This document shows, piece after piece, positions 2,126 to 60,149 of a stretch of 64,000 bases of DNA. A program made the position numbers and the translations under genes. The notes under the pieces are model-generated. The model searched no databases and was not told the origin of the DNA. It saw nothing but the letters and a program-made list of their open reading frames with translations. The DNA is from Eledone cirrhosa (lineage: Eukaryota): NCBI GenBank assembly GCA_964016885.1, contig OZ024749.1:30814001-30878000 (forward strand), given 5' to 3'. Position 1 is the first letter of the stretch. Each line of letters starts with the position of its first letter.

Positions 2126-2760
2126 AATATGGTTTTATAAATATAGTTTCCATTTGTTAATATCGTATGTTTACTCCAAATATTTGTTGAGTGCTTTATA
2201 TCAGTTATAAAAATATTTGCTTGTTGTATCCCAACAATTTAAATAGAACTTTTGCATATATATATATATATATATATATATATATATATATTCCTTTTCG
2301 ATCGACTTTCGTCAAATCGGACCGAGGGAACACGTTTCCGTTGGTCTTTCCAATTGCTAATACTATCTATCGGTCTCAACTCCAGGTAGAAGGAGCAATG
2401 TGAAATAAAGTGTTTTGCTCAAGGACATAACGCATCGCCTGGTCCAGGAATCGAACCGACAAGCTAACGATTGCGAATATATATATGTATATATATATAT
2501 ATATATACATATACATCTCTCTCTCTCCTCCTCCATCCGCCCTCTCTCTCTCTATCTCCATCCCTCTCGCTCTCCTTCTCTCTCCCTCTCTCTCTCCCTC
2601 GTTCTCTCTCTCTCTCTCTCTCTCTCTCTCTCTCTCTCTCTCTCTCTCTCTCTCTCTATATATATATATATATATATATATATATATATATATATATATA
2701 TATACATGTCTATATATATATATATAGACATGTATATATATATACAATATATATATATAG

Positions 2761-4510
2761 TTTAGGTTCTTTTTGTTTACCACCATTATTATCATCATTA
2801 TTATCATTAGTTTTTGACAACTCTTTATTCTAGCTCTCATAATCTTTTGGCTACTATACCATATCTATCTTATTACGCATTAAATTTTCACTATTAACAC
2901 CTTATGAGTATATATCTGATTATATATTTTACATTATTTTATTTTATTTTATTTTATTTGGATTCTTTATTGGATAACCCCCCCCCCCCCATGCGCACAT
3001 AAACTTATTGTCAACCCCTTCACATAGATTATGGTTATATTTAACCCCCCCCCCTCTTTTACGCTCCTTTTCTATTATTTAATATAGTATATTGACTATA
3101 ATGTTATGCTCCTTTGTATCCTCCATACATTTCTTTTTTTCTGTCCCTATTAGCCTACCATAATTCTGCTTAAGTCAGTTTTTTAGATATCGTTATGTAA
3201 ATGATAGTAGAAAATTTCATCCCTTTATATATATATTTGTAACGAAATATTAACGTCTATATATTTTGATTACTTAAACCATAGCAAATATTGTATTGCC
3301 TTATTAGATATTTTAAATATTTTTAATATTAATTTATCAAATAGGGTGTTCGAGTCATTTACCGGGGTTGTTTCCTAAGTTTTCACTTAACCGCATGTGA
3401 GACCTAACTATATACTTTTGTTCTTGTTTTTTAATTTCTGGTTGATTCTATTTATTTATTTATTTATTTATTAATACTACTGTGCATTCTATTTACTGTC
3501 TGGCCCTTACTCACTCATTCACATATATGTCTGTTTACCAACCTTGTAATTATAAGTAATTATATATTATATTATGTTAATTATTTTATATTGTATTTGT
3601 TATTGTACTATCGATCCTTATTACTTACCGTTGATTATATATAACATTATGATATGCTAAATTTTATATATCATGTAAGATGTTTATATTTTTGTACCAT
3701 CATAATTTTGGGCATTGTACAATTTATATTTTTTCTCACCTACTCTGTAACTCTATATGAATTGATTTGTTAACTTGCATGCCATTATATATTATATATT
3801 ATATATGTTATTATATTATTATTATAGTATTATTGTGACATCTATATTGTTTGTGTAAATTAACCGGAGATTATCTATTATTATATTATATTATATGGTA
3901 TATAATTGTATAGTTTATTATATATTATATGTGCTACTTATAATCATATAATATTATTACCTCATGTATATTAGATATATGTATTATTACTATTATTATT
4001 ATTTTTATTCCTATCATGCTTATTTATATTTAAACTCTTAATAAGGTTTAATTTGTGCTGTTAAAGATGGATATGTGTATTGATGTATGTGTATGTGTGC
4101 GTACGTGTGCGTACATATATACATATATATATTGTACCTCTTGATTTTTATTGTAATTTTAATATTGTTACAAGTATATTATATTTATATATTATATAGT
4201 ATTATATATAATTCCCGCTCTATATAACCACCTTTGTTTAGCTCTAGTTTTTTTTTTGCTTTGGACTATATTTGTAATATGGTTCTAAATGTTATACACC
4301 TCCTTAGTGATTTTTATTATATATTTTTACCCATAATCTTGCAATACTTTAGTGTATGTACACTCCATATTCTTCGGAGTTTTCGGCTTGTATAGGCCGA
4401 TAATACTTCTTGTTGTTTTAATTGCCCTGATGAGTCCTTAATAGGACGAAACATTGTTGGCTAATAAAGACTTTTGATGTATTGAAGGCTTCTTTGTTTT
4501 ACTTTCATAA
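2761..4510 (+). mobile_element. Non-coding ~1.75 kb T-rich insert ending in a hammerhead (probable PLE 3' UTR/pLTR remnant)
   Basis: Bounded on both sides by (TA)n; strong strand bias; no ORF; HHR and AATAAA at the 3' end. Confidence 0.5.
4424..4461 (+). ncRNA. Minimal type I hammerhead ribozyme, canonical core
   Basis: GCC-CTGATGA-GTCCT-TAAT-AGGAC-GAAA-CATTG-TT-GGC; perfect core and 5-bp stem II. Confidence 0.85.
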
Positions 4511-4679
4511 TATATATATATATATATATATATATATATATAATATATATATATATATATATATATATATAGAGAGAGAGAGAGAGAGAGATGTATATAT
4601 TTTGAGTCACCAGTTTAGATCAGTTGCACAAATGTTCAGCTTAGTACTTGATATTTGAGAAAGAAGTATGTATAGTAAA

Positions 4680-4770
4680 TAATTGTTTCTACTTTAGGCA
4701 CAAGGCCAGCAATATCCCAGTGCATTACTGGTACTTTATTTTATCGACCCCGTAAGGATGAAAGGCAAAG
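4680..4770 (-). mobile_element. SINE family 1, 3' fragment
   Basis: TTTCTACTTTAGGCACAAGGCCAGC..GGTACTTTATTTTATCGACCCCGTAAGGATGAAAGGCAAAG. Confidence 0.75.
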
Positions 4771-5076
4771 AGTGCCAGTCGGCAATCAGTAATGTTATCG
4801 ATTACAGGTGATGCTATTGATATGAACATTGTAGGTTAAAGGAGAGTGTAAATATTAAATTTGATACGATGACGATTCAATTTAAAATGCATTTACATAA
4901 TATCAACCTACACACACAAACACACAGGCGACACAAACAAACACACACACACATTGAGTGTGTGTATATATATATATATGTGTGTGTGTATATACATGAA
5001 TATATATATATATATATATATATATATATATATATATATATATATATATATATATATATATATATATATATATATA

Positions 5077-58119: not shown

Positions 58120-58372
58120 CCTTGACCGACCAGTCAGTCGGGCGTCAATCGACGGGGATGGTCGCAGCACGACGTGCTGTTTTAGCCATAAGATAACGCG
58201 ATCCCTCTGACTGGGCGGGCCCCGGTACTCATTTCTAGAGCTGATTAAACTGGAGCAACGTGAAATAAAGTGTCTTGCTCAAGGAAACAACACATCACCC
58301 GGTCCGAGAATTGAACTCATAACCTTTCGATTGCAAGCCCAATGCTCTAACCACTAAGCCATGCGCCTTCAC
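58120..58372 (-). mobile_element. tRNA-derived SINE family 2 copy
   Basis: rc GTGAAGGCGCATGGCTTAGTGGTTAGAGCATTGGGCTTGCAATCGAAAGG..CCTTGAGCAAGACACTTT; matches the head of the 5521 copy. Confidence 0.8.
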
Positions 58373-59031
58373 ACACACACATATATATATATATATATAT
58401 ATATATATGTATATGTATTTATGTGTGGATGAAGGTATGCGTGTATATATAGGTGTAAGTGCACTAAATCCCTTTCTATCACGCTCCACTCTCCTACCCA
58501 CCACAGGAAGATATGTGTATGTATATTGCTTCCACCCCATCACTGACCAGCAGCTGGCCAGTTGGCGATTGCTAAATCTGACCTTTATAAAATAACCCAC
58601 ACCCCAAATAACTTCTCATTCACTACCAGAAAGGGACACAGCAGTCAACCTGTTGTTGCTACCTAGATGAAAACTGCTATGAAATCCCACAATGAATTTT
58701 ATACTTGAATTTTAAAATCTCAAATTTTAACTCTTCGTATTATTAATTTTTCTTAATATTAATCAACATTTGAAAAGATGGCTTTTGCAGACCCATCGAA
58801 ACCGGTCATTTTTTATACCCTTTATTATTTCCTTACCTTATAAAATTATGTTTTTTCACAAAAAAGTATTCTGTCTCTTATATATTCCATGTGCCATTAC
58901 CAACCCCAATTTTCTCTATAACCTTCGTTTTGTGTAGAAAATTACACTTTTCATATATATATATATATATATAAAATATTAAACAAATAATGAATAAAAC
59001 AATGAAACAGTTCCTTATATTAAACAAAAAA

Positions 59032-59189
59032 AGTTCATTATTTAACGATCGTTTCTAGGATATATATGTGTTAGAATTGGCATGCATATTCAACAGATCT
59101 ATGTATAAAATTATACAAAATTATACAAACTATCAAGATTAAATATACATACCAACACATATATACGCCGTCTTCAGAAATAATGAACT
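59032..59189 (-). ncRNA. Type I hammerhead ribozyme, family E, with a very long stem II insert
   Basis: rc AGTTCATTATTT-CTGAAGA-CGGCGTATATATGTG..CACATATATATCCTA-GAAA-CGATCG-TT-AAATAATGAACT; 12-bp stem I. Confidence 0.75.
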
Positions 59190-60149
59190 CTTTTTGTTTA
59201 ATATAAGGAACTGTTTCATTGTTTTATTCATTATTTGTTTAATATTTTATCTTGACTCTGTATACCGTTTATCTTTCACCGAAAGTGATTTTTCATTACA
59301 TCTCTTCTTTCCATGATATCCGGAATACATTGAGTTCTTCATACGGATTGGACACTACCGTAAACTCTTGGTAGATTTATCTACATATATATATATATAT
59401 ATATATATATATACATATATACAAATATTCATATACATACACTGTTGTTTTATGTTTATTGTATTCGCATGTCATAAAGAATATTGAATATGTATATATG
59501 TATATATATATATATATATATACATATATATAAAATGTATATATATATATATATAGGTATCTGCATATATATATATATATATATATATATATATATATAT
59601 ATATATATATATATATATGCAGATACCTATATATATATATATATACATTTTATATTGGCAACATGACCCTCCCAAAGTATAACAATATCGGTTTCAACAC
59701 ACGATTTCAGATAAAGAATCTTGCTAAACAAATTCAGAAACGAAATATATATATATATATATATATATATATATATATATATATATATATATATATACAT
59801 ATTCAATATTCTTTATGACATGCGAATACAATAAACATAAAACAACAGTGTGTGTATATAAATGTTTATATATACATATGTATACATATGTATATATATA
59901 TATATATATATGTACAGAGAGAGGGAGAGTGAGATAGATAGATAGATAGATAGAGAGAGTTAGAGAGAGGGAGAGAGACCGAATGATACATATACATATA
60001 CAGGTATGTATATGAAACATTTTAAATTGAATGTTGGGCAAATAAATTACACGTCCACAAATACACATTCATATATAAACACAAACATCTGTACGTGCTT
60101 ATTTTGCATTCGTAAATAAGTGACCCTATAAAGCAAAGTACATGCAATA

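What the first reader, a model, noticed from the sequence alone, without database searches (positions are those of the whole stretch)
2173..59335. A conserved bulged stem (RCTC-helix-YY bulge-GAGY) downstream of the hammerhead in about nine unrelated PLE pLTR families
Seen in sequence: inserts that otherwise do not align share RCTC, then an inner helix of variable sequence and length, then a 2-nt 3'-side bulge (TT/TC, once TA), then GAGY, usually followed by NCY. Examples: 2173-2192 ACTC CAAA/TTTG TT GAGT (also 29280, 45832, 55333); 6632-6665 GCTC TGTAAA/TTTACA TT GAGC; 24113-24152 and 39683-39722 ACTC CGGAGT/ACTTCG TC GAGT; 28845-28870(-) ACTC TAA/TTA TT GAGT; 31844-31867 ACTC TACT/AGTA TT GAGT; 37896-37945 GCTC TA/TA TC GAGC; 38088-38112 ACTC CAGT/ACTG TA GAGT; 43725-43749 ACTC CAGTT/AACTG TC GAGT; 47660-47678 ACTC TGC/GTA TT GAGT; 59255-59335 ACTC TGTAT/ATACA TT GAGT. 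The outer pair covaries (A-T vs G-C), the inner helix differs completely but stays paired, and the loop ranges from 2 to ~60 nt. Where a hammerhead is present it lies ~20-60 nt upstream in element-sense orientation, so the motif would sit near the 5' end of the self-cleaved RNA, just before the ORF (47660 vs ATG 47769). Established: PLE pLTRs carry hammerheads. I do not know of a described second motif. Inference: a cis signal for RT binding/priming (reminiscent of the hepadnaviral epsilon bulged stem), for translation of an uncapped RNA, or for 5'-end protection.
Basis: partly seen in the sequence, partly recalled or inferred. Interest (0 to 1): 0.9.

Follow-up and report, generated by a model that had tools for sequence, protein, structure and literature searches.

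The report
Twin stems mark Penelope copy starts
A small bulged hairpin sits twice in a row in one large group of Penelope-type jumping genes, every inserted copy ends a few bases before one of the two hairpins, and the hairpins likely tell the element's reverse transcriptase where to start copying its RNA.

Summary
The motif (RCTC-helix-UY bulge-GAGY) is real: 17 hits in the window against 0.6 in shuffles, with covarying pairs. It belongs to Hydra-clade Penelope-like elements (PLEs), and a model trained on 12 marine metagenomic copies finds it in 40 of 44 other loci.

Element 3' ends fall mostly 5-9 nt upstream of copy 1 or of copy 2 (201 of 206 ends), and 47 of 50 inverted insertions use one of each. 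The known PLE 'tail' is therefore the copy 1-to-copy 2 interval. Copy 2 was predicted, then found, in 3 of 4 further families; the fourth gave no junction.

Best reading (0.65): each stem is an RNA docking site that sets an internal start of reverse transcription just 5' of itself. This would explain the two start sites published for another PLE clade. Arms run through the hammerhead cut site, so the template is not linear cleaved RNA. No biochemistry was done; endonuclease or RNA cleavage at these sites remains possible. I found no description in the papers searched and no Rfam match.

The parts
47660..47678 (+). Motif copy 1 in the 5' pLTR-ORF junction of a full-length Hydra-clade PLE (family A)
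   Evidence: top window hit of the model trained on metagenomic copies
47731..47743 (+). Degenerate copy-2 candidate of family A: 4-bp hairpin GCAC/GTGC, 9 nt after this family's long end; assigned after seeing the end position
   Evidence: weakest copy 2 of all families
47594..47632 (+). Hammerhead core to inferred cut site (after 47632), 27 nt before copy 1
   Evidence: cut site placed by eye
47769..49909 (+). Hydra-clade PLE ORF (RT + C-terminal GIY-YIG), in two frames in this copy (47769-48011 and 47912-49909)
   Evidence: RWR, DKT, CxCX5C as defined; relatives
49910..54028 (+). About 4-kb microsatellite-rich 3' UTR with hammerhead, ending at the SHORT end, 6 nt before where copy 1 would begin, then (TA)n
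2173..2192 (+). Copy 1, family B; long end 63 nt downstream at (TA)n
   Evidence: copy 2 and ORF start of family B
6632..6665 (+). Copy 1, family E; long end about 127 nt downstream (family spacing 163 nt)
24113..24152 (+). Copy 1, family F
   Evidence: copy 2 and ORF
28845..28870 (-). Motif, family G; end 84 nt downstream; no ORF junction found, so clade and copy 2 untested
29280..29299 (+). Copy 1, family B
29444..29462 (-). Copy 1, family A relative; long arm of an inverted insertion (long end about 29399, short end about 29568)
31844..31867 (+). Copy 1, family C; long end about 31915
   Evidence: junction with copy 2 and ORF
32108..32127 (-). Copy 1, family B (new)
35442..35805 (.). Inverted insertion of family H: minus arm with motif (35481-35526) and long end about 35442; plus arm stops at short end about 35805
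36271..37983 (+). 5'-truncated family H element: GIY-YIG ORF end, 3' UTR, copy 1 at 37896-37945, long end about 37983
38088..38112 (+). Copy 1, family I (TA bulge)
   Evidence: copy 2 and ORF
39683..39722 (+). Copy 1, family F
43725..43749 (+). Copy 1, family I
45832..45851 (+). Copy 1, family B
45986..46066 (-). Copy 1, family D (new); long end about 45935
55333..55352 (+). Copy 1, family B
55531..55549 (-). Copy 1, family A relative (new)
56205..56228 (-). Copy 1, family C (new); long end about 56156
58973..59385 (.). Inverted insertion of family D: minus arm with short end about 58973; plus arm with copy 1 (59255-59335) and long end about 59385

Best explanation
The bulged stem occurs twice in tandem in Hydra-clade Penelope-like elements, each insertion end lies a few bases 5' of one copy, and each copy likely acts in the RNA as a docking site that sets an internal start of reverse transcription.

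Shown (DNA): two copies between hammerhead and start codon; two classes of 3' end, each mostly 5-9 nt before a copy; one of each class on the two arms of an inverted insertion; a UA dinucleotide at most boundaries; copy 2 left out of both arms; arms pass through the hammerhead cut site.

Inferred: the element's protein binds the stem (CUC/GAG core, U-led 2-nt bulge, one to three closing pairs, unpaired 3' flank). The endonuclease cuts (TA)n DNA. The DNA 3' end pairs with the UA just 5' of the stem, and RT copies the RNA upstream from there. Both strands of the cut are primed, one at copy 1 (short arm) and one at copy 2 (long arm, which carries copy 1), and the two cDNAs are joined head to head. 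This gives the inverted pLTRs with a 'tail' on one side. The template would be an uncleaved tandem transcript or a re-ligated circle, since copy 2 lies in the next unit's 5' leader.
For: Ends: 201 of 206 TA-abutting ends lie within -14..+2 of a copy start (95 copy 1, 106 copy 2; 14% expected if uniform) over 13 junction queries with spacing 66-172 nt, so the long end follows copy 2 and not a fixed distance; 82 of 86 in loci taken without selection. Arms: 47 of 50 divergent pairs are short+long, 3 long+long, 0 short+short. Other hosts: 35 of 78 metagenomic loci hold a tandem pair; 12 of 15 alignment end-points lie at -4..+6 of a copy start, 6 per copy. Prediction noted beforehand met in families B, F, I: 2 of 2, 2 of 2 and 4 of 4 junctions carry copy 2 starting 6-9 nt after the long end. 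Boundary TA in 22 of 30 family ends, 32% expected. G-U 10 against A-C 3 favours the sense strand. Frangieh 2024 (PMC11167929) shows, for another clade, internal RT starts at two sites bounding the tail, extension of both strands, and a need for RNA 3' of the starts.
Against: No binding or RT assay; all of it is positional. The stem is weak in folding models. Family A, with at least 150 copies 97-100% alike to the window's, has only a degenerate 4-bp hairpin after its long end, which I assigned after the fact; 20 of the 106 long ends rest on it. Some copies break the outer or first inner pair. Family G gave no junction. Three of 15 metagenomic end-points and 5 of 206 own ends fit neither copy. 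Two-ended tails exist without this motif (non-Hydra PLE in the window; PAc template), so it is not the universal PLE solution. Loci L169-L218 were picked by family A or C, which skews counts. Two of the 12 metagenomic end-points (L111, L112) look like one insertion.
Confidence: 0.65

Rival explanations
1. The motif directs the GIY-YIG endonuclease, which cuts a DNA intermediate (tandem or circular cDNA, or the donor) at the TA next to each stem, so the two ends are resolution cuts and not RT starts.
For: The enzyme's target is TA-rich and boundaries are at TA. Craig 2021 ascribes the tail to EN-mediated resolution. Frangieh 2024 cites a need of the tail for D. virilis EN cleavage (the original paper was not read).
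Against: Loop lengths of 6-108 nt with covarying inner pairs need a single strand. The G-U bias points to the sense strand, while first-strand cDNA is antisense. In PAc the tail ends match mapped RT starts.
Confidence: 0.14
2. The stems mark RNA processing sites: the RNA is cut or terminated just 5' of either stem, and RT then starts at an ordinary RNA 3' end as in LINEs.
For: The same end map would result. A structure 3' of a cut has precedent in HDV-like ribozymes (recalled).
Against: The motif is very small, with no catalytic core and no Rfam match. PAc starts internally on intact RNA. The strict one-short-one-long pairing is harder to get from two separately processed RNAs.
Confidence: 0.1
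3. The stems chiefly serve translation or stability of an uncapped, hammerhead-cleaved or circular RNA, and the ends fall next to them only because RT starts in accessible AU-rich linkers.
For: Copy 2 ends 18-31 nt before the first ATG in 12 of 16 junctions and starts about 64-101 nt before the KNIP codons in metagenomic junctions. The motif would be near the 5' end of a cleaved monomer.
Against: AU-rich linkers and TA runs are abundant in these leaders, yet ends keep a narrow offset to both copies across spacings of 66-172 nt. Copy 1 lies 120-315 nt from the ORF start region. A second role in translation is compatible with the main model.
Confidence: 0.08
4. Epsilon-like protein priming: RT uses the bulge as template for a short protein-linked primer.
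For: Likeness of shape to the hepadnaviral bulged stem (recalled).
Against: Ends lie 5-9 nt outside the stem and are joined to (TA)n target DNA; the bulge is 2 nt; PAc is target-primed.
Confidence: 0.02

Closest known systems
Poseidon PLE of Anolis (PAc): two internal RT start sites bounding the 'tail' (Frangieh et al. 2024, PMC11167929)
   Same: Two alternative 3' ends, AT-rich target, both strands extended, hammerhead upstream and dispensable, RNA 3' of the starts required.
   Different: Other clade. Starts lie inside the ORF in an AC-rich stem-loop and no positioning element was defined. The printed template has no RCTC-helix-UY-GAGY; by eye it has one CUC/GAG hairpin starting 8 nt after position +118, a lead only.
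Hydra-clade PLEs (Craig et al. 2021, PMC8557442)
   Same: RW(K/R), DKT and CxCX5C protein marks, C-terminal GIY-YIG, hammerhead, (TA)n target, inverted pLTR. Three of the six consensus sequences in File S7 carry the motif clearly, one of them twice.
   Different: No RNA motif besides the hammerhead in the sections read or in supplement word searches. Tails here are 58-172 nt, not 30-40; family A has a 4-kb 3' UTR.
3'-terminal stem-loops recognised by non-LTR RTs (R2 3' UTR, L2/UnaL2 and partner SINEs; recalled)
   Same: A short cis RNA structure with a few fixed bases selects the template for target-primed reverse transcription.
   Different: There the signal lies 5' of the start and is copied. 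Here it lies 3' of the start, is not copied by the arm it marks, and is doubled.
Telomerase RNA template definition (recalled)
   Same: Sister RT lineage (stated); internal template, short alignment stretch pairing with a simple-repeat primer, position set by neighbouring RNA structure.
   Different: Telomerase copies a short template repeatedly and stops at a 5' boundary; these elements copy up to kilobases. No sequence or structural homology was tested.
Hepadnaviral epsilon (recalled)
   Same: Bulged stem-loop near the 5' end of the RNA, bound by RT.
   Different: Epsilon templates protein priming in a larger bulge; here the ends map outside the stem and join target DNA.

Membership tests
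Hydra-clade PLE | RWK-type motif, DKG changed to DKT, CxCX5C linker, C-terminal GIY-YIG flanked by CxxC and CxH | tested here: met
   Window ORF has KRIRWRAFF, SSDKTKN, CNCLNKEAC, CDLC and CMH against the definition; K is R in the first motif.
Hydra-clade PLE | Hammerhead in pLTR and insertion into (TA)n | tested here: met
   several cores are variants and were placed by eye. Rfam did not report them in 13 loci.
Hydra-clade PLE | Generally short (<3 kb) | tested here: not met
   Family A is about 6.6 kb in the window because of a 4-kb microsatellite 3' UTR; a general trait in the paper, not a strict one.
Hydra-clade PLE | Placement in the RT phylogeny | not tested
   No tree with reference clades was built; assignment rests on motifs.
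PLE 'tail' structure | Optional extension at only one end of an inverted insertion | tested here: met
   47 of 50 arm pairs short+long.
PLE 'tail' structure | Length 30-40 bp | tested here: not met
   58-83 nt in metagenomic loci, 66-172 nt in this genome.
Known Rfam family | Match to a covariance model over the motif | tested here: not met
   13 junction loci gave 7 matches, all microsatellite-like miRNA models below gathering score. In the window only 150 of 357 matches were listed; none of those was on a motif copy as such.
Non-LTR 3' stem-loop signal (R2, L2) | Signal lies 5' of the RT start and is copied into each new element | tested here: not met
   Each end lies 5' of the stem it tracks; copy 2 is absent from both arms.
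Non-LTR 3' stem-loop signal (R2, L2) | Bound by the element's RT and required for TPRT | not testable with these tools
   Needs biochemistry.
Hepadnaviral epsilon | DNA synthesis starts in the bulge, primed by protein | tested here: not met
   Ends lie outside the stem, joined to target DNA.
Telomerase RNA elements | Homology to pseudoknot, template boundary or CR4/5 elements | tested here: inconclusive
   No Rfam telomerase match; analogy of geometry only, and the motif is too short for such a search to exclude homology.

The most novel reading that the evidence does not exclude
Hydra-clade Penelope elements define their template the way telomerase does, from inside the RNA: a dimeric RT-endonuclease grips two copies of one small bulged stem, anneals both 3' ends of a cut (TA)n site to the UA just 5' of each stem, and copies whatever lies upstream. 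The pair of stems is then a portable address of about 20 nt each that could insert any upstream RNA into (TA)n, and its CUC/GAG core may be an ancestral RT-positioning element shared with other PLE clades.
Probability: 0.35. Interest if true: 0.92.

Novelty: new variant of a known kind. Interest (0 to 1): 0.82.

Why it matters
How PLEs choose their internal RT starts, and why insertions are inverted with a tail on one side, are stated open questions (PMC11167929, PMC8557442). A doubled motif that predicts both ends to within a few bases across many families and hosts gives a concrete answer and a simple mutational test. It also gives curators a rule for element boundaries in a clade with at least 3,724 ORF starts in this genome. 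Since PLE RTs are the sister group of telomerase, a signal 3' of an internal template bears on how telomerase-type template use arose. A compact signal that is not copied into the product would be of use for RNA-templated insertion tools.

Tried and rejected
- Direct-repeat and Rfam scans of the whole window were swamped by microsatellites.
- Pfam gave no family for three Hydra ORF pieces and a weak RVT_1 for the other PLE.
- My first count of hammerheads (8 of 20 copies) was an artefact of a strict pattern and truncated copies; variants were later seen upstream in 9 junctions.
- A fixed distance from copy 1 to the long end was rejected: it varies with copy spacing.
- Run-off from a linear hammerhead-cleaved template was rejected: 4 of 184 arm 5' ends within 3 nt of the cut (93 more arms ran past the query start).
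- A genome-wide double-motif pattern (18,699 against 534 control) is not a clean test: the listed hits are mostly a hammerhead helix of family C and satellites.
- One search was spoiled by microsatellites in the queries and was redone.
- MAFFT could not align copies of unequal loop length, so the model used 12 copies of equal length.
- Earlier findings: three look-ups, nothing returned.
- R-scape, Dfam and Repbase were not available.
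Full report
Observation. The pattern gives 17 hits against a mean of 0.63 in 60 local shuffles; six more copies lie on the minus strand. One decoy word scored high but only in microsatellites. In 60 arbitrary 10-kb stretches of the same genome there were 43 hits, of which 26 lay 30-90 nt before a (TA)4+ run, against about 4.5% for control words; 13 decoy word pairs gave 0-6 such hits. So the motif is real and tied to element ends.

Which elements. [quoted passage not shown] A pattern for its N-terminus finds 3,724 places in the genome against 26 for the control. Of the nine window families, eight lead into such ORFs (A; C, D; E, H; B, F, I; the B junctions are short or broken); G gave no junction. 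The other PLE in the window (ORF 20571-22277, clade not fixed) also shows two ends about 60 nt apart but has no such motif. The host is probably an octopod (inference from a recalled SINE and genome size; not tested).

Two copies. In 78 metagenomic loci of relatives at 36-42% protein identity, 35 hold two copies 58-83 nt apart. Of 34 non-redundant junctions, 31 have at least one copy and 22 have two or more. With copies picked by the outer words and 3' flank only, inner pairs 1-3 are formed in 51 of 54, 32 of 50 and 27 of 32 (shuffle means 40.1, 19.1, 14.2); pairs 4 and 5 do not exceed chance; the bulge starts with U in 54 of 55. These shuffles ignore relatedness. A covariance model from 12 metagenomic copies found 85 hits in 40 of 44 other loci: 79 sense and outside the ORF, 4 antisense downstream, 2 in the ORF, though ORFs are 61% of the bases. 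Its nine best window hits are all motif copies, at weak E-values of 0.1-1.1; long-loop copies were missed. The covariation score on the fitted alignment was 0.275 against 0.117, driven by the two inner pairs. In Craig's File S7, read by eye in full, the motif is clear in a coral and two sea-cucumber consensus sequences (one with both copies, its sequence starting 2 nt before copy 1), degenerate in two and not seen in one. Six exact 9-mers of the 3' half gave 7 places in that supplement: 4 in these Hydra motifs, 3 scattered in Naiad and Chlamys sequences.

Ends follow the copies. I took 14 junctions as queries over 165 own-genome loci (1.33 Mb) and recorded each alignment end that abuts (TA)n. 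Of 206 ends, 95 lie within -14..+2 of copy 1, 106 of copy 2, and 5 elsewhere; most are at -5 to -9; a uniform spread would put 14% there. Spacing runs from 66 to 172 nt, so the long end is not a fixed distance from copy 1. In loci taken without selection the count is 82 of 86. Of 50 divergent arm pairs, 47 are one short and one long. In metagenomic loci 12 of 15 end-points lie at -4..+6 of a copy start. I then noted a prediction and searched with patterns holding no motif letters: all 8 junctions seen among 76 matches in families B, F and I carry copy 2 6-9 nt after the long end; the other matches run into microsatellite. Against: family A has only a 4-bp hairpin after its long end, chosen after the fact, and 20 long ends rest on it; one query has a 3-nt deletion that shifts 15 ends to -3.

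Mechanism. Frangieh 2024 (PMC11167929; parts 1-3 of 4 and three supplements read, figure images not seen) shows for a Poseidon PLE that RT starts inside the RNA at two sites bounding the tail, that both target strands are extended, that RNA 3' of the starts is needed, and that a dimer is predicted. Read onto these data, each stem would be the docking site and the start would be just 5' of it. The base pair step after the boundary is TA in 22 of 30 family ends (32% expected), which would let a (TA)n primer anneal; G-U outnumbers A-C 10 to 3, favouring the sense strand. Copy 2 is copied into neither arm, so it must act from the template. Arms run through the hammerhead cut site (4 of 184 starts within 3 nt), so the template would be an uncleaved tandem RNA or a circle, as proposed in Cervera and de la Pena 2014 (PMC4209133, passages). 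Binding, priming and the dimer are inferred, not shown. The stem is weak on its own and would need protein. Endonuclease resolution (Craig 2021), RNA processing and a translation role for copy 2 are the rivals.

Novelty. The tail, inverted pLTRs, hammerheads and two RT starts are known. I found no description of this motif or its doubling in seven paper searches (listings only unless named), in Craig 2021 (passages, sections 11 and 15, supplement parts 1, 52, 53 of 59 and two word searches), in a 2026 retrozyme preprint (10.64898/2026.07.22.740005, parts 1-3 of 5; supplements not seen) or in PMC3846280 (passages). Rfam has no match over 13 junction loci. Subscription papers, Repbase and Dfam notes were not searchable. 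I rate it a new variant of a known kind, an RT-positioning RNA signal with reversed and doubled geometry, with interest 0.82.

Noticed in passing
G000:C1:14235001-14269582 (L219, L220, L332-L334), minus strand: A 34.6-kb tandem array with a 58-nt unit made of the family C motif plus a spacer ending in a TA-rich stretch; 486 exact anchor matches; it ends at a normal family C long end followed by (TA)n. The period equals the shortest copy spacing seen. It may come from unequal exchange or from repeated RT starts.
   Followed up: partly
window 22481-22810; L179, L235, L270, L279: The non-Hydra PLE (ORF 20571-22277) has a short end and longer ends about 45-65 nt further on; 5 nt after the short end lies a TGT-TTCG-ACA hairpin, the same geometry with another stem. 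TTCGAC also occurs next to the mapped start in the PAc template.
   Followed up: partly
PMC11167929 Methods, PAc template +126 to +139: A CUC/GAG hairpin without the UY bulge begins 8 nt after the +111-118 RT start and inside the required first 172 nt; none follows the more upstream AC-rich loop. Read by eye.
   Followed up: no
families A and C, many loci: Inversion junctions of the two arms pile up 33-48 nt upstream of the hammerhead cut site, inside the hammerhead helices; RT stalling or an alignment effect of the hairpin.
   Followed up: no
window 49910-54028; L001-L030: Family A carries a 3' UTR of about 4 kb of mixed (TA)/(TG) microsatellite that varies between copies while the ORF is 97-100% identical.
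   Followed up: partly
L249, L256, L252, L287: Hammerhead core variants upstream of copy 1 (UUGA, CAGA or CCGA in place of CUGA, some with very long helix II), read by eye; activity unknown.
   Followed up: no
window 20398-20530: A family A relative whose copy 1 is disrupted by an internal duplication but which still ends at the usual long-end position; likely decay after insertion.
   Followed up: no
G000:C1:1721902-1724402: A 42-nt tandem satellite holding ACTC and TTGAGT words without a good inner helix; link to the motif unclear.
   Followed up: no
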